Assembly: GCF_000372725.1 (NCBI RefSeq)
Contig: NW_005202427.1
Span: 310,001 to 374,000 of the forward strand
DNA from: Emiliania huxleyi CCMP1516
Lineage: Eukaryota
Length of the DNA stretch: 64,000 nucleotides
Direction: 5' to 3'
Below are positions 14,490 to 64,000 of the stretch, in pieces (position 1 is the stretch's first letter; each line of letters opens with the position of its first letter). The notes beneath the pieces were generated by a model. It made no database searches, was not told the DNA's origin, and saw only the letters and a program-made list of their open reading frames with translations. The position numbers and the translations under genes are program-made.

Positions 14490-15081
14490 ACATCGCGACT
14501 CTGCCCGCTCGCTCGACCCTTTTGCCGCGAGAGGGCGCCGGCCGCGTGTAAGAGGTGGCTGGCGCCCTGAGGCGGCAATTGGTGGCGTGGGGAGTGCGGA
14601 ACGCTACTGGCGGCGCGACAGGGCCTCTCTCGATTGCGTGTGCCGCCCATCGGCACGCGGGTGCGCAGACATCGCGACTCTGCCCGCTCGCTCGACCCTT
14701 TTGCCGCGAGAGGGCGCCGGCCGCGTGTAAGAGGTGGCTGGCGGCCTGGCGCCCTGAGGCGGCATTTGGTGGGGTCAGCGTGCGGTGCTGAGTCTTACTC
14801 GTCGGCGCTGGGGCCACAGATCCCAGCGCAGAACTCTGCAACGCTGGCATACAAACACAAGAAGACTAACCCTAACCCTAACCCTAACCCTAACCCTAAC
14901 CCTAACCCTAACCCTAGGTCAGCGTGCGGTGCTGAGTCTTACTCGTCGGCGCTGGGGCCAGATCCCAGCGCAGAACCCTGCAACGCTGGCATATACAAAC
15001 ACAACAAGACTAACCCTGACCCTAACCCTAACCCTAACCCTAACCCTAACCCTCTAACCCTAATAACCGCCTAACCTAACC
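14490..15081. repeat. Internally duplicated element with interstitial telomere-type (CCCTAA)n tracts
   Basis: Duplications at about 14490-14590/14670-14770 and 14774-14916/14917-15050. (CCCTAA)n tracts at 14866-14916 and 15010-15081. Confidence 0.9.
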
Positions 15082-37959: not shown

Positions 37960-39581
37960 GATCCCACCCGCCGCCTCCCTCCACCTCGCCCTCGCCGCCG
38001 CCCCCCTCCGCCTCGCCCGCCGCCTCCCTCCGCGTCGCCGTCGCCGCCGCCCCCCTCCGCCTCGCCGTCGCCGCCGCCTCCCTCCGCGTCGCCGTCGCCG
38101 CCGCCTCCCTCTGCCTCGCCGTCGCCGCCACCCGGCTCGCCGCCGCCGCCCTCGCCGCCGCCGCCCAGCCCGCCTCCGCCAAGCCCGCCGCCGCCGTCGC
38201 CGCCGCCCTCTCCGCCCCCGTCGCTGCCGCCCTCTCCGCCCCCGTCACCGCCGCCCTCTCCGCCCCCGTCGCCGCCGCCCTCGCCGCCGCCCTCGCCGCC
38301 GCCATCACCTCCGCCGCCCTCCGCCCCGCCCTCCGCCCCGCCCTCCGCCTCGCCGTCGCCGCCGCCTCCCTCGGCCTCGCCGTCGCCGCCGCCTCCCTCC
38401 GCCTCGCCGTCGTCGCCGCCGCCTCCCTCTGCCTCGCCGTCGCCGCCACCCGGCTCGCCGCCGCCACCCTCGCCGCCGCCGCCCAGCCCGCCTCCGCCAA
38501 GCCCGCCGCCGCCGTCGCCGCCGCCCTCTCCGCCCCCGTCGCTGCCGCCCTCTCCGCCCCCGTCACCGCCGCCCTCTCCGCCCCCGTCGCCGCCGCCCTC
38601 GCTGCCGCCCTCGCCGCCGCCATCACCTCCGCCGCCGCCCTCCGCCCCGCCCTCCGCCCCGCCCACGCCGCCGCCGCCAACGTCGCCTTTACCTGACGTG
38701 GACCCGCCGTGCTTCCCGAGCTCTGCGACGGTTCAGCGCGCCGACGGCGAGACCGCCCTCCTCTCCTCCCTCTCCGCCGGCGACTCGATCCTCGCCGCGG
38801 CGGCCGACGGCACCCTCGCTTTCGATGGCGTGAGAGCGTTTTCATCTGTTTCACAGTCGCTTACTTCTACTAGGCACCCTCGGCTTCGACGTCGTCTCCT
38901 CCTTCTCGCTGGCCCACCCGTCCGCCAAGGCGGCTTTCCTCTCGCTCGCCACCGCGACGGCGACGGTCACGCTCACCCCGACGCACAAGCTGCCCGCCGG
39001 CCCGGCAAAGGCGCTCAAGCAGGCGTCCGAGGTTGCCGTCGGAGAGACGATCTGGCTCGCGTCGCCGGCCGCGGGCACGCTCGTGCAGGCGCGTCTATAC
39101 CCCCAGCACCACACACACATCCCTGCCTCTCCCTATGCGACCCCCCCCCCCCCCCTCCTGCCAGGGGCCCGTCCTCAAGATAACCAAGGTCGTGGCCGAC
39201 GGGCTGCACAGCCCGCTCACCAAGCACGGAGGCTGGCCGGTCGTCGACGGCGTCGCGACCTCGTACAACAGCGCGGCTGTCGTCGCGCGCAACAAGTACC
39301 TCGTCCCGCTCGTCGAGGCGGTCTGCCCCTGCCTCGGCCGCCTCGTCGTGGCGGCCGTGAACCCCAAGCCGATGCACTACATCGATGGCGAGGTGAGCCC
39401 TCTCCCGCCGTCCCAAGTTATATCTCACTTGTCCCCACTCCTCCCCACCCCATCGCCCACGTTCGCCTCTCGCTCTCGACCAAAGGTGGTCGAGCCAATC
39501 TCATCGCTCGAGGTCGCCGCTGCCGTGGCCGTCACGGCCGCCGCCACTCTTGGCGTGCGCAAGATCACGGCGCGCAAGTAA
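37960..39581 (+). CDS. Pro/Ser-rich protein with Hedgehog-type Hint domain; 5' end missing or frameshifted
   Basis: SPPP repeats then PPCFPSSATVQRADG..LSAGDSIL, VTLTPTHKL, ASEVAVGETIW, GLHSPLT..VVDGVATSY. Introns 38810-38873, about 39089-39164 and 39393-39486. No start codon found; register shift near 38016. Confidence 0.8.
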
Positions 39582-55078: not shown

Positions 55079-55521
55079 TACGGGACCCCGCCCCCGTAAC
55101 TTATATGCTGGTGGGATAACTTCAGCAAGCTGTGTGGCTTTCTTCACCTCCGTGTGTGCCGCTGCGCATGTTCTAAGTTTCTGTACGTAAAGGAGTTTTG
55201 CGCCGCCGTGAAAGTCCGGAACCTAGGGGGGGGGTGTTGAGAAGGAAAGGGGGGGGGGGGCAGCCCAAGCCCGGCGAGGGGGGGGGGGGGGGCCCCCCCG
55301 GGCCCGAACCCTCTTTTTAACAAACGGCGGCCGCGGAAGAAAAAACTTTAATTTTTTACCCGGGGCCGGGACCCACTCGAGTTTGAACTTCATGTTGAAC
55401 CAGTTCCCCCCCCCCGCGGGGGTATGCACGCCAAAGAGAGTCGATAGACGCAGCTCATGGAGAAGGCTGTGTGACGGGTTCATGTGAAGGCTGTGTGAAG
55501 AACAACGTGTGGAAGTAAAGT

Positions 55522-56552
55522 GCTACTGGTTACTGGAGACTGTGCAGAGCAGTACTATTATTACTGGTTACTGGAGACCGTGCAGAGCACTCCTATTATG
55601 ACTGTGGTTACTAGACTGTGCAGAGCAGTACTATTACTGGGGACTGTGCAGAGTCCTGCTGCTGGTTACTGGAGACTGTGCAGAGCACTCCTATTATGAC
55701 TGTGGTTACTAGACTGTGCAGAGCAGTACTATTACTGGGGACTGTGCAGAGTCCTGCTGCTGGTTACTGGAGACTGTGCAGAGCACTCCTATTATGACTG
55801 TGGTTACTAGACTGTGCAGAGCAGTACTATTACTGGTTACTAGACTGTGCAGAGCAGTACTATTACTGGGGATGGTTACTGGAGACTGTGCAGAGCACTC
55901 CTATTATGACTGTGGTTACTAGACTGTGCAGAGCAGTACTATTACTGGGGACTGTGCAGAGTCCTGCTGCTGCTGGTTACTGGGGACTGTGCAGAGCACT
56001 CCTATTCTTACTGGTTACTAGACGGTGCGGAGCAGTACTATTACTGGTTACTAGACTGTGCAGAGCAGTACTATTACTGGGGACTGTGCAGAGTCCTGCT
56101 GCTGCTGGTTACTGGGGACTGTGCAGAGCACTCCTATTCTTACTGGTTACTAGACTGTGCAGAGCAGTACTATTACTGGGGACTGTGCAGAGCACTCCTA
56201 TTCTTGCTGGTTACTAGACTGTGCAGAGCAGTACTATTACTGGGGACTGTGCAGAGCACTCCTATTCTTGCTGGTTACTAGACTGTGCAGAGCAGTACTA
56301 TTACTGGGGACTGTGCAGAGCACTCCTATTCTTGCTGGTTACTAGACTGTGCAGAGCAGTACTATTACTGGGGACTGTGCTGTGCAGAGCACTCCTATTA
56401 TGACTGGGGACTGGAGACTGTGCAGAGCCACTCCTATTATTACTGGTACTAGACTGTGCAGAGTACTATTATTACTGGTTACTGGAGATTGTGCAGAGCA
56501 CTCCTATTATGACTGAGGACTGGAGACTGTGCAGAGCACTCCTGTATGACTG
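55522..56552. repeat. Complex satellite of ~25-40-bp units anchored on GACTGTGCAGAG
   Basis: About 30 units alternating GCAGTACTATTACT, CACTCCTATT and TCCTGCTGCT variants. Confidence 0.95.
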
Positions 56553-59827: not shown

Positions 59828-61799
59828 TCACCACTCGTACCCTGCGTGCATGCTGAAGCTGGTCTCGTCGAGAGAGAGGTGGCCCGTGTCGCCGAGGGAG
59901 ATCATCGAGACGGAACCCGTCGGGCGGATCTTGAGGTGCGTGAGGGAGCAGTTGTAGGTGCAGAGCCGCAGCCACGCCTCGGGCGGCAGCTGCAGCGCGC
60001 GCAGCGCCATGTAGCGGATCACGTTGCCGTGGCACACGACGATGTCGTACTCGTGCTGCGACACGCGCGGCGGCTTGCTCGCGCGGGGGCTGAGCTTGCC
60101 GGGGGCGGTCGCGGCGCCGGCGGCGCCGTCGGAGGCCGCCTCCGCAGCGCCGTCGCCCCGCCCGCCGCCAGCGCCGTCGTCGGGGGGGTAGGGCGGCCTG
60201 CCCCGGTAGACGAGGGCCCGATAAGCGGCCTCCATGCGCGCGCCCTCGACGTGCACCTCGCGCGCACCGTCCGCCAGCGCGCCCTTGGAGTACGGGATGC
60301 GGTGCGCGGGCGGGTACCCCTCGGCCAAGTTCGGGTCCGGCGCGAGCCTGCGGGAGGTTCCGAGAAGGTTCCGAGAAGGTTCCGAGAAGGTTCCGAGGAG
60401 GGGTCCCCCTCGGCCAAGTTCGGGTCCGGCGCGAGCCTGCGCACCCTCCCGGCGGGCAGCTCTGCGGCGATGAGGTCCGCGGTCTCCTTGGCGCGGGTCA
60501 GGGTGCCTAGAAGGTGACAACAACGCTCCCTCGCACGACACTGGGCACGGGACTGGCGCGCACTGGCTCTAACAAGAAGCAGACTACGCCAACCTCAGGG
60601 CGGGGAGACGGACTCGTGCGGAGTAGGTGGCCATGCATACGGCGGTGTGCAGAGTACTAGTGGTGCATCTACCAATCTCGGGGCGGCCTACGTGCCAATA
60701 CGCCAACCTCGGGGCACGAATACGGTGTTGTGCAGCGTCTTCAGAGCACCGCGAGAATACAACGGAGAAGAGTACAGTGGATACAGCGGAAGACGGGTGA
60801 ACACAGCTGAATGCGCGTCCTCTCGGGCGCTAGTTCGGATACCTGAATACGTGTGTCCGCTTCTAGGTCAGCGTGCTCACGTGGAGCCGCACGTGCGCCT
60901 CGCGCCCCTCCTCCTGCAGCGCGCCGCGGAGCATCTCCGCAATCCGCCGGCCGGTGGCGGTGGCCTGCTGCCTGCCGAGCGGCGTGAGGGTCTGCTCGGC
61001 GTCGAGGCGCGGGAAGGCCTCGTCGAGCGGCATGCCAAAGTCGCGGTCGGGCACGCCTACAGGAAGGCACCAGGAAGGGTCTAGGAAAGGTCCGAGAAGC
61101 GGCATGCCAAAGTCGCGGTCGGGCACGCCGGCAGGGCGGGAGAGAGCGCGCGAGAGCGGCCTCTGCTCGTCGTACTGGCCGTGCCGCACGAGGATGATGT
61201 GGCGGGTGGGCGCGCCTGGGGCGGCAGCGGTGGTGGCCATGCGGGTGACGGCGAGGCGAGGCGGGGGCGAGAGGGAGACGGGGAGGAGCGAGGGAGGAGA
61301 CGGAGGATGAAGAGAGCGCAGCCGAGAGAGCGGCCGTGGCACCTCCGTACGCGTGCTCGAGGTACGCGCGCCGGTAGAGCGCAGGCAGCTCCGCCTCGGG
61401 CGTCCGCTCCAGCAGCCGCTCCACGCGCTCGCTCGACCTGTTGGTGTGCTCGGCGTAGAGCGATCGCACGGCGTCGGCATAGTCGGCGATGGGCCAGGCG
61501 TGGCGGAGCGCGCGAGCCACCTCGCGGTCCGACGGCTCGCAGTAGTCCCAGTTCCGGTCCCACGCCGGGTACGGCCTCGCCGGCAGGAAGCGCTGCTCCT
61601 CATACTCGGCGGGCAGGTCCTGGAAGCGGATGTCATCGTCCGCCTCGCACGACGCGGCGCGCTGGAGCGCGACCGTGCCGGCGGCGGCGGCGATAGCCGC
61701 GGCGGCGGCGGCGGCGGCGGGTGCGGACGCGGCGGAGGAGCGAGAGAGGGTGGAGTGGCGTCGCGATGCCGCTCGCACTGTCGCCCTCGCAAACAACAT
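59828..61799 (-). CDS. PGAM5: PGAM5 mitochondrial Ser/Thr protein phosphatase; 5 exons
   Basis: Mitochondrial-type presequence; WDRNWD, HIILVRHGQY, LTPLGRQQA, STLTRAKETA, LAEG, IVVCHGNVIRY, ALQLPPEAWLR and GDTGHL. Introns 61216-61342, 61057-61128, 60507-60876 and 60348-60436. Confidence 0.92.
60507..60866. mobile_element. Intron-forming insertion (introner-like) with CTAGAAG TIRs and ~10-bp TSD
   Basis: Ends CTAGAAG (60507-60513) and CTTCTAG (60860-60866); flanks GTCAGGGTGC and GTCAGCGTGC. Confidence 0.65.
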
Positions 61800-62053: not shown

Positions 62054-62207
62054 AGCCGGGATAGAATTTTGAGGTTAAATGATTTTTCCTGGAGCTTAAG
62101 AAAGAAAGAAAACAGCGTCTAAAACTCAAAAAAAAACGCTCACACAGATGCCGGTTCGAGGAACTCTCCGCATCGCTCGCCCGGACCGCACCTGTTCCTC
62201 GAGCGCG

Positions 62208-64000
62208 ATGTCGACCCTGATCGCGCTCATCTGCGTCGCTCCGGCGGCAGCCTTCCGCACGGGCGTGTGGCATCACCCTCCCGACGCGTCAACTTCCTCC
62301 TCTCTTTTTCCTCGGGCCGCGACCGCGGCGATGCAGCTCCCGGGGATGGCGCAGGCGGCCACCGCCGCTGCCACGGTGGTGCAGGAGGTGGCCGGCTCGG
62401 TTCAGGACGTCGAGGCGCCCGACGCGGACGACAGCTTCGTCGCCATCGACGAGAGCCGCACCGGCCTGGTCGACGAGGAGGGCCTTCCGCTGGTGTATGA
62501 CAAGGAGGCGATCCAAAAGTACTGGGAGGGGCAGGGCGGCGCGCTGCAGTCGCGCTGGGCGGAGTTTCTGTCGGTGAGCGTTCCCTTCCTCACGCGCGTG
62601 GCGGCGCTCCTCGTCTCGGGCGGCACCGACGCGCTGAACGACTCGGCCTCGGAGCTCGCACGCGACGCCCGAGAGCGGATCCAAAAGTTGGGGCCGACGT
62701 ACGTCAAGATGGGACAGATGATGTCGGTGCGGCCCGACATCCTGCCTCAGGCGGCGCTCGACGAGCTCACCATCCTGCAAGACGGCGTCGAGGGCTTCCC
62801 CGCTGACGTGGCGCGCGAGATGGTCGAGGAGGAGCTTGGCGCCCCGATCGACGAGTTGTTTTCCGACTTCTCGGCCGAGCCGGCGGCGGCGGCCTCGCTG
62901 GCGCAGGTCTTCCGGGCGACGCTCCGCTCGAGCGGCGAGCCCGGCGGCGGTCGACTCGCTCCCCTCGGCTGGAGCCCTCACCGTCGTCGAAGATTGCCCA
63001 CAGGCGAGGCTGTGGCGGTCAAGGTGCAGCGGCCGGGAGTCCAGTCCCTCGTCTCCAAAGACCTGTACGTGCTGCGGCGGGCGGCGGAGGTCTACCAGGG
63101 GCTGGCGAGCCGCCGCTGCCCGCGCCCTCCGCGGTCCGCGCCCAGCGCCAGGGCCGCGCGCGTGTCCCGCGTGTAGGTCGAGCGTTTCGCGCCGCAGCAG
63201 CGCACCGACTACGTCGGCTTGCTCAACGAGTGGGCAGTCGGCTTCTACACGGAGCTGGACTTCAAGAACGAGGCGAGTCGTTCACTCTTTCACTGCAACA
63301 TGCGGTCCTTCTCCGCCTCCGTCTCCTCCTTTTCCTCCGCCGCCGTCTCCTCCGCCGCCGTCTCCTCCTCCTCCCTCTCCACCTCCTCCTTCTCCGCCTC
63401 CTCCGTCTCCGCCTAGCAGCGCGCCGGCAGGCGGCGGGAGAGCTTGGGGCGCGTGTCTCAGGCCGGTGCCGCGCGCCGCGTAGGCGGCGAACATGCAGAC
63501 GATGGCGCGCGGCCTCGCCGAGGCGGGCGTCACCGACGTGGCGGTGCCGCGCGTGTACGAGGCGCTGACGACGCGGCGCGTGCTCGTGAGCGAGTGGATC
63601 GACGGGCGGAAGCTGTCCGAGTGCTCGACCGAGGAGGTCCGCGAGCTCGTCGCCATCGGTCAGGAGTGCTTCCTCGTGCAGCTGCTGCAGACAGGCCCCA
63701 CTCCCTCGCCTCCGCCGCCGGCCCCCGGCAGGGCGCGCCTCGGGCGTCTCGCGGAGCGGCTTCTTTGACCCTTCTCTAGGCTTCTTCCACTCGGACCCGC
63801 ACCCGGGTAACCTGATGCGGCCGCACGACCAGAGCCGTGCGCGGTGCGACTTTCCCCCCTCACCCGCCTGGCCCGCGCCCCGCCCTCTAGCCCAGCGAGG
63901 CCCGAGCGACGCGCACGCCCGCCGAGGAGAAGGAGAAGGCTGTTGCGCGGCGCGACCCGCCCCCCTGCGTGCCTGCCGGCGGGCGCAGGCTCGTGCTGAT
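62208..64000 (+). CDS. ABC1K: ABC1/UbiB atypical protein kinase (plastid ABC1K-like); runs off the window end
   Basis: LGPTYVKMGQMMSVRPDIL, AAASLAQVFRA, VAVKVQRPG, ELDFKNE, LVSEWIDGRKL and GFFHSDPHPGNL across GC-AG introns; signal peptide ending AAA-F. Confidence 0.92.

What the first reader, a model, noticed from the sequence alone, without database searches (positions are those of the whole stretch)
60312..60441. Intron apparently created by duplication of exon sequence (PGAM5 last intron)
Seen: 60317-60352 is repeated exactly (36 nt) at 60406-60441, 89 nt away, with (AAGGTTCCGAG)x~4 filler between. On the coding strand the duplicated stretch contains CAG^GC. The first copy gives a GC donor (60436) and the second gives the AG acceptor (60348). 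Removing the 89 nt restores RLAPDPNLAEGYP; retaining them shifts the frame. Established: tandem duplication of a proto-splice site is a long-proposed but rarely observed route of intron gain. Inference: tolerance of GC donors makes many exonic sites usable, so this is a very recent gain.
Basis: partly seen in the sequence, partly recalled or inferred. Interest (0 to 1): 0.88.

Follow-up and report, generated by a model that had tools for sequence, protein, structure and literature searches.

The report
Break-repair introns filled with satellite repeats
In the bloom-forming alga Emiliania huxleyi this spliced intron, like dozens of predicted others, is a short copy of the next exon followed by an 11-base repeat ending in the splice acceptor, likely a scar of DNA-break repair, which would make this alga a place where new introns can be watched arising.

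Summary
The repeat and the 89-nt GC-AG intron (60436-60348, minus strand) of E. huxleyi PGAM5 are real. RNA contigs from 4 of 4 studies skip it; DNA from 4 of 4 runs and an independent metagenome contig carry it. Allele comparison moves the duplicated block to AG plus 36 nt from the donor; the extra upstream match is probably derived. The intron is not a plain tandem duplication and not a one-off. The filler is an 11-nt satellite unrelated to the exon, and 48 of 57 such arrays sampled end at YAG|G. In 250 kb sampled, 31 of 77 intron-sized direct repeats start at a GY-AG register (control 4). Only 7 of 30 exon ends supply AG, so the filler usually brings the acceptor. A formin intron of this build is precisely absent in one allele, and PGAM5 intron 2 probably is too. 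Best reading: staggered breaks filled by microhomology-primed copying of satellite, with spliceable products kept. Closest known: Daphnia break-repair neointrons, whose repeats are 4-12 bp. Ten library searches found no description in E. huxleyi. The scan noted one similar case in another protist genome. Relatives' intron positions remain untested.

The parts
60348..60436 (-). PGAM5 intron 4, 89 nt, GC..AG, phase 2
   Evidence: only GY-AG register; RNA contigs skip 89 nt in 4 of 4 runs; DNA carries it in 4 of 4 runs and L047
60401..60438 (-). first copy of the duplicated block (exon-end AG plus 36 nt that form the intron's 5' part, starting with the GC donor)
   Evidence: one intronic substitution at 60405 in this allele, a different one at 60414 in L047
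60312..60349 (-). second copy of the block (acceptor AG plus the first 36 nt of exon 5)
60357..60400 (-). filler: four 11-nt satellite units (CCTTCTCGGAA family)
   Evidence: the same array found at 57 distinct places in metagenome contigs; summed contig depth over these bins is hundreds of times that of the flanks (not a copy number)
60348..60356 (-). pyrimidine tail and YAG acceptor; ends CAG in the window and TAG in the other alleles
61057..61128 (-). PGAM5 intron 2, 72 nt, GC..AG; 31/31-nt copy of the exon 3 start plus a decayed array of the same family; upstream exon ends CG, so its AG is from the filler
   Evidence: skipped in RNA contigs of X13 and X16; present in X1, X7, X9 and L047, skipped in the DNA contig of X8
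60507..60876 (-). PGAM5 intron 3, 370 nt, GC..AG; first 11 nt match the exon 4 start at 10 sites; holds very high-copy repeats
61216..61342 (-). PGAM5 intron 1, 127 nt, GT..AG, no duplication signature
61343..61799 (-). PGAM5 exon 1
61129..61215 (-). PGAM5 exon 2
60877..61056 (-). PGAM5 exon 3
60437..60506 (-). PGAM5 exon 4
59828..60347 (-). PGAM5 exon 5 (His_Phos_1 C-terminal part)

Best explanation
This is a real spliced GC-AG intron, likely gained when a staggered DNA break duplicated about 38 nt of exon and a foreign 11-nt satellite tract was copied in between the two copies, and it is one of a likely genome-wide class in E. huxleyi. Shown: the build (exon-start copy, satellite, YAG); splicing; the same build at many other sites; filler unrelated to the exon; 1-5 nt of in-register overlap at 9 of the 11 junctions where copy and array abut; a precise empty allele at one formin site. 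Inferred: nicks 15-40 nt apart leave overhangs; one 3' end anneals by microhomology to a satellite template (another intron's 3' end, as DNA or RNA) and is extended; fill-in and joining leave copy-filler-copy. Insertions in exons survive if the copy begins G|GC or G|GT (easy, since most donors in this alga are GC), the filler ends in YAG, and the total reaches about 60-90 nt. The flanking repeats would also allow precise loss or tandem multiplication of the intron.
For: Splicing: 89-nt skip in 4 of 4 RNA runs from 4 studies. X13's RNA contig shares five listed SNPs (59873, 60188, 60447, 60454, 60457) with L047, whose continuous DNA contig holds the intron. DNA contigs of X1, X7, X8 and X9 stop exactly where two copies predict at k=31 (60346/60412, 60346/60409 twice, 60341/60409). 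Class: 51 of 57 distinct arrays have YAG within about 40 nt downstream, 48 of them YAG|G; on the far side 36 have a YAG and only 6 are followed by G. 19 of 51 have an upstream copy of the next exon start scoring 10 or more, against 0.35% of 2550 mismatched pairings. Among all 120 distinct direct-repeat pairs spaced 30-300 nt, 60 are spaced 60-79. Of 77 spaced 60-100, 31 have GY..AG at offset 0-2 against 4 on reversed/complemented controls; at other spacings 3 against 2 of 43. Exon end is AG in 7 of 30 and G in 26 of 30. Filler is no closer to the exon continuation (P 0.26) or the upstream exon end (P 0.24) than to other loci's, in 26 hand-picked cases. In-register overlap averages 2.0 nt against 0.71 expected at the 11 abutting junctions, P 0.0002. 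The 68-nt copy-plus-filler unit in a formin gene is present in L019 and precisely absent in L031, which keeps its neighbouring introns. Some units have AG|GY inside the copy with 7-25 matching nt before it (L002, L019, L029, L034, L056), as target duplication predicts. Other fillers occur with the same build, including telomere-type hexamers with a 26/26 copy in L041.
Against: No break, enzyme or template was observed; the mechanism is read from scars. 15 of the 26 junctions have 2-31 nt of other sequence between copy and array. Intron 2 has a perfect copy but an already decayed filler, so that filler was not freshly written as perfect repeats. 32 of 51 acceptor-linked arrays show no clear copy by the ungapped test; they may be old or of another origin. 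Five of the 8 RNA-supported introns examined here (PGAM5 intron 1 and four in the neighbouring ABC1 gene) lack the signature. Empty alleles could be losses by recombination between the copies, not ancestral states. Apart from PGAM5, splicing of the other introns is predicted from splice signals and open frames, not from RNA. The loci were selected by the filler, so their density is inflated. No relative's gene DNA was obtained.
Confidence: 0.62

Rival explanations
1. Target-primed reverse transcription: a retroelement enzyme (or a telomerase-like one) inserts 5'-truncated copies of an RNA ending in satellite plus YAG, for example the 3' ends of existing introns, and the exon copy is its long, variable target-site duplication. 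The product is the same; the enzyme differs.
For: Variable duplication length (8-39 nt, median 24). Array strongly oriented and tied to YAG|G. Varied, sometimes pre-decayed acceptor tails. Microhomology at junctions. Telomere-type filler in L041; telomerase-made insertions at breaks with occasional target duplications are described in mammals (PMC2246262, passages).
Against: No common upstream element sequence is visible before the arrays in the 72 matches printed. No A-tail is seen. Several unrelated 10-11-nt units, hexamers and non-repetitive fillers share the build. No element ORF was recognised by eye in the one long-array locus whose ORFs were listed (L016); no family scan was run on it.
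Confidence: 0.18
2. Old introns remodelled: the intron position is ancient and its 5' part was replaced by exon sequence during an aborted, cDNA- or mRNA-templated loss. Complete events would give the empty alleles.
For: Perfect copy beside a decayed filler in intron 2. Precise empty alleles. Many arrays at acceptors lack a copy.
Against: Units with 7-25 matching nt before and further matches after AG|GY would need two separate events. Two such introns lie 41 nt apart in L049. A copy-array-copy unit without YAG on the array's strand exists (L066).
Confidence: 0.11
3. One reading: a plain tandem duplication of an exon stretch containing CAG|GC gave both splice sites, with local repeat expansion in between.
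For: In this intron the exon does end in AG and both copies read AG|GC. 7 of 30 sister cases also have AG at the exon end.
Against: The filler is not derived from flanking exon and is shared by at least 57 places. 23 of 30 sister cases lack exon-end AG. The extended CGCAG match is confined to the window's allele.
Confidence: 0.07
4. Assembly artefact, or an unspliced insertion.
For: All runs laid were contigs, not raw reads. A repeat longer than the k-mer can be collapsed by an assembler.
Against: An independent metagenome contig, L047, spans it with its own substitutions. Four DNA runs break as two copies predict. RNA with matching SNPs lacks it. Retention destroys the conserved C-terminal domain.
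Confidence: 0.02

Closest known systems
Neointrons from staggered double-strand-break repair in Daphnia pulex (PMC4202315, passages; reviewed in PMC3443670, passages)
   Same: Direct repeat of the adjacent exon end at the far end of the intron, foreign insert, presence/absence among alleles.
   Different: Daphnia repeats are 4-12 bp (33 cases) and the inserts AT-rich and mostly of unknown source. Here repeats are 8-39 nt (median 24), inserts come from a few shared 10-11-nt satellites that bring the acceptor, and donors are often GC.
[quoted passage not shown]
   Same: Exon sequence is duplicated and supplies the donor; the coding sequence is restored exactly.
   Different: In the classic model the whole intron is duplicated sequence and both sites come from it. 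In potato the acceptor comes from the neighbouring intron duplicated along. Here a foreign satellite lies between the copies and usually supplies the acceptor.
Introner elements (10.1101/2022.06.06.494994, PMC12130899, PMC11282704; passages)
   Same: Many new introns share sequence; one splice site is co-opted from the target duplication and the other is carried by the insert.
   Different: The introner examples in those passages have 3-5-nt duplications, often terminal inverted repeats, and similarity over the whole intron. Here duplications are long and variable, no inverted ends were found in this intron, and only the 3' satellite part is shared. The searched passages never name Emiliania, Gephyrocapsa or huxleyi; the one haptophyte example (Chrysochromulina) has 4-bp duplications.
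Interstitial telomeric repeats inserted at breaks in mammals (PMC2246262, passages)
   Same: Tandem repeats added at a break, in-register microhomology, sometimes a target duplication.
   Different: There the unit is the telomere hexamer, duplications are a minority (6 of 130 rodent and 4 of 25 primate loci), and the passages read do not describe the products as introns.
Small tandem duplications from breaks with 3' overhangs (CST/Pol alpha fill-in, NHEJ or TMEJ; PMC8355091, passages)
   Same: Experimental route by which nicks 43-50 nt apart give duplications of this size.
   Different: Shown in mammalian cells, with no satellite filler and no intron outcome in the passages read.

Membership tests
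GC-AG spliceosomal intron of E. huxleyi | GC donor and YAG acceptor, removed from mRNA | tested here: met
   GC donors are 56-65% in this alga (PMC4028052, section 15)
Tandem genomic duplication (proto-splice-site model) | duplicated segment contains AG|GY | tested here: met
   both copies read AG|GC; met in only 7 of 30 sister cases
Tandem genomic duplication (proto-splice-site model) | intron consists wholly of duplicated gene sequence, no foreign DNA | tested here: not met
   53 of 89 nt lie outside the 36-nt copy; fillers are no closer to their own exon flanks than to others (P 0.26, 0.24)
Break-repair neointron (Daphnia type) | [quoted passage not shown] | tested here: met
   far longer than the 4-12 bp reported
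Break-repair neointron (Daphnia type) | foreign inserted sequence | tested here: met
Break-repair neointron (Daphnia type) | intron-less allele or intron-less close relatives at the same site | tested here: inconclusive
   none for intron 4 in 5 DNA samples; precise empty allele for a formin intron and probably PGAM5 intron 2; direction of change unknown; no relative's DNA found
Introner element | sequence similarity over roughly the whole intron among many introns | tested here: not met
   5' parts are locus-specific exon copies; only the satellite is shared
Introner element | short fixed-length target duplication and/or terminal inverted repeats | tested here: not met
   duplications 8-39 nt; no inverted repeat of 12 nt or more within the intron
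Telomerase-type repeat insertion at breaks | in-register microhomology between break end and repeat | tested here: met
   mean 2.0 vs 0.71 nt at 11 abutting junctions of 26 examined, P 0.0002
Telomerase-type repeat insertion at breaks | unit matches a telomerase or other RNA template | not testable with these tools
   the unit is not the TTAGGG telomere repeat reported for this alga; no whole genome held; no Rfam match over the gene

The most novel reading that the evidence does not exclude
E. huxleyi runs an ongoing, genome-wide intron factory: a repeat-writing polymerase (telomerase-like or retroelement-derived, with a small set of 10-11-nt templates) heals staggered breaks by adding ready-made intron 3' ends between 15-40-nt target duplications. 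Relaxed GC/GA donor use lets almost any G|GY site accept them. Thousands of its introns, its satellite-filled intron interiors and its GC-donor majority would then share one cause, with gains and repeat-mediated losses segregating in today's populations.
Probability: 0.3. Interest if true: 0.92.

Novelty: new variant of a known kind. Interest (0 to 1): 0.76.

Why it matters
Where new introns come from is a long-open question, and most young introns have no traceable source. Here the parts are legible (donor from a long exon copy, acceptor from a shared satellite), the cases are many, their copies range from about 78% to 100% identity, and at least one segregates as a clean presence/absence allele. 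This alga is cultured and has many sequenced strains, so rates, direction and mechanism can be tested directly. It also bears on gene prediction in this alga: the public model of this gene (P0005) drops exon 2 and the region around intron 4.

Tried and rejected
Whole-genome test: no genome is held for this window, so the class was sampled through 69 metagenome loci picked by the filler plus the window. Filler scan of viral contigs: 0. PGAM5 loci in genome contigs and viral contigs: none, so intron positions in relatives were not obtained; protein homologues show a contiguous motif but say nothing on introns. Idea that the filler is a decayed longer duplication: rejected. Strand assignment by pyrimidine content was too noisy (47 vs 36 vs 22 of 82) and was replaced by the offset test. 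Search for a parent element beside long arrays: L016's array sits between 36-nt inverted arms; its ORFs were listed and none was recognised by eye, with no family scan; the three other regions scanned gave nothing. Pfam on 7 short exon pieces gave hits for 3 only: Peptidase_M28 above cutoff and two adjacent FH2 stretches at E 0.026, below cutoff. Rfam over the gene: 0. The rank correlation between copy identity and filler perfection was not obtained (script stopped before it). Literature searches found no paper describing this build in E. huxleyi. The 2013 genome paper is not held; from recall it notes GC donors and 10-11-bp intronic repeats, and its text or supplements, or other subscription papers, may already mention the duplications. 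bioRxiv supplements (introner species tables) were closed.

Full report
Observation. The stated repeat is exact: 60317-60352 equals 60406-60441, 36 nt, spacing 89, and this is the maximal exact match. With one mismatch it continues to 60312/60401. Between the copies lie four 11-nt units. On the minus strand the region belongs to a five-exon gene (exons 61799-61343, 61215-61129, 61056-60877, 60506-60437, 60347-59828) for a 437-aa protein with a His_Phos_1 match. It is identical at 274 of 279 aligned residues to a public Emiliania huxleyi model, and many relatives are named PGAM5 by their sources. Of all registers that remove 89 nt and give the same mRNA, only 60436..60348 is GC/GT..AG; retention shifts the frame before the conserved C-terminal part. 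GC donors are the majority in this alga (56-65%; PMC4028052, passages and section 15).

Is it spliced, and is it real DNA? Of 18 runs listed I laid 4 RNA and 4 DNA-type runs, all as contigs. All 4 RNA runs, from 4 studies, skip 89 nt. None of the DNA joints shown skips it (6 lesser joints were not shown). The DNA contigs stop at 60346/60412 (X1), 60346/60409 (X7, X8) and 60341/60409 (X9), exactly where a graph at k=31 must break if two copies are present in each allele. X1 may be the window's own source. An independent metagenome contig, L047, spans the gene with all four introns, and five listed SNPs of X13's intron-less RNA contig match L047. So the skip is splicing, not an empty allele, and the intron is no assembly artefact.

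What was duplicated? L047 differs from the window at 4 of 89 intron sites and 8 of 1305 exon sites. It keeps the exon's base at 60405, so the copy originally ran 36 nt from the donor, and it ends TAG where the window has CAG. X9's break points fit the L047 state; X7 and X8 have the 60405 change with TAG; the window has the change with CAG. By parsimony TAG is ancestral and the window's longer upstream match is derived, perhaps by exchange between the copies (inference). The original block is AG + 36 nt. The intron is young but older than the split of these alleles.

It is not alone. PGAM5 intron 2 (72 nt, GC-AG) starts with a 31/31 copy of exon 3 and a decayed array of the same family; its upstream exon ends CG, so its AG cannot come from the copy. 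Intron 3 matches the next exon at 10 of its first 11 nt. Intron 1 and the four RNA-supported introns of the neighbouring ABC1-family gene show no such copy. A scan of metagenome contigs for two filler units gave 70 stretches in 69 loci, 184,890 bases. That most of these are E. huxleyi is inferred from GC content, the shared repeats and L047; a few (such as L016) look different. The 72 arrays reduce to 57 distinct ones (one allele pair was not merged). 51 have YAG within about 40 nt downstream and 48 of these read YAG|G; on the other side 36 have a YAG and 6 a following G. 19 of the 51 have an upstream copy of the next exon start scoring 10 or more, against 0.35% of 2550 mismatched pairings. 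These 19 include L047 itself, three tandem multi-unit loci and one imprecise case.

A filler-independent scan of the loci and the window for direct repeats spaced 30-300 nt (low-complexity, third-copy and array-overlapping pairs dropped) left 120 distinct pairs; 60 are spaced 60-79 nt. Of the 77 spaced 60-100, 31 have GC/GT..AG at offset 0-2 from the start of the copy, against 4 on reversed or complemented control strands; at other spacings the count is 3 against 2 of 43. Among the 30 with YAG, the exon ends in G in 26 but in AG in only 7; donors are 17 GC and 13 GT. Fillers include several 10-11-nt units, telomere-type hexamers (L041, 26/26 copy) and non-repetitive sequence. Block-shuffled DNA gave 0-3 such pairs against 111. 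Excision leaves at least one open frame across all 14 junctions translated (weak evidence in GC-rich DNA); in L019 the flanks match consecutive FH2 positions 18-58 and 64-92, weakly. These other introns are predicted, not RNA-confirmed.

Polymorphism. In 16 allele pairs (29,925 aligned bases) one copy-plus-filler unit of 68 nt in a formin gene is present in L019 and precisely absent in L031, which keeps its neighbouring introns and so is DNA. L025 has two more tandem intron-like units than L020, and two other gaps are array-length changes. X8's DNA contig runs through PGAM5 intron 2 with a 72-nt skip at the depth of its flanks, where X1, X7 and X9 break. This is probably an empty allele, but graph simplification cannot be excluded without reads. 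Gain versus loss is not polarised.

Mechanism. In 26 hand-picked cases of this filler family the copy is 8-39 nt (median 24) and the intron median 71.5 nt. The filler is no closer to its own exon continuation or upstream exon than to other loci's (P 0.26, 0.24), so it is foreign, not a decayed longer duplication. At the 11 junctions where copy and array abut, the overlap in register averages 2.0 nt against 0.71 (P 0.0002); the other 15 have 2-31 nt between. I read this as a staggered break whose overhang is duplicated by fill-in while one end is extended on a satellite template found by microhomology, with selection keeping products that start G|GY, end YAG and reach intron size (0.62). That paired nicks give duplications of this size is shown in mammalian cells (PMC8355091, passages). 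A reverse-transcriptase route giving the same scar is the main rival (0.18). Remodelling of old introns (0.11) fits intron 2's perfect copy beside a decayed filler but not units matched on both sides of AG|GY.

Comparison with what is known. It works like the staggered-break neointrons of Daphnia (PMC4202315, PMC3443670; passages) but with repeats two to three times longer and a shared satellite that supplies the acceptor. It fails the defining tests for classic tandem-duplication introns and for introners. Ten library searches and passages of two coccolithophore genome papers (PMC13518057; 10.1101/2024.05.26.595999) and of a review (PMC3488318) gave no description of this build in E. huxleyi. 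The 2013 genome paper was not available; that it mentions 10-11-bp intronic repeats is recalled only. The scan's notes hold one similar single case in another marine protist (e1-7379343; not checked by me) and nothing on this genome or sequence.

Verdict. Observation confirmed, interpretation partly supported. The intron is a clear example of a likely common, still-segregating intron class in this alga. Three clear cases in the 64-kb window (introns 2 and 4, and 38810-38873) would extrapolate to thousands genome-wide, a rough inference from one window. New variant of a known kind; interest 0.76.

Noticed in passing
window 38810-38873 (+): Predicted 64-nt GC-AG intron whose first 22 nt copy the next exon start, with a non-satellite filler; one frame is open across the excision. 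No RNA was laid here.
   Followed up: partly
window 14773-15063 (+): Two 144-nt tandem units, each about 93 nt of unique sequence plus a CTAACC hexamer tract; the first reads GT..AG from 14774 to 14917.
   Followed up: no
window 60517-60575 and 60697-60810: PGAM5 intron 3 holds pieces of very high-copy repeats: summed contig depth thousands of times the flanks at 60502-60589 and hundreds of times at 60722-60765 in all four DNA runs. Family not identified; no Rfam match.
   Followed up: no
L010, L018, L034, L036:1338-1466, L020/L025: Copy-plus-filler units multiplied head to tail (two to several), with copy-number difference between alleles in L020/L025; likely slippage or unequal exchange between the flanking repeats.
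   Followed up: partly
L052:~900-970; L008: Copy-bearing candidates whose only matching register has a GA donor; GA donors are reported at up to 4% in this alga.
   Followed up: no
several loci (L001, L002, L006, L034, L045, L056): Different 10-11-nt filler units share a short core (TCTCGG / ATCTC on the intron strand), suggesting related satellites or a common splicing signal.
   Followed up: no
L016:2934-3076: The same 11-nt array lies between 36-nt inverted arms, between two similar ORFs, in lower-GC DNA that may come from another organism or element.
   Followed up: partly
window 62100-64000 (+): Neighbouring ABC1 atypical kinase gene with four RNA-supported GC-AG introns at 62935-63003, 63105-63176, 63273-63483 and 63695-63779.
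   Followed up: yes
window 55500-56450: Long, complex tandem array of roughly 20-76-nt units.
   Followed up: no
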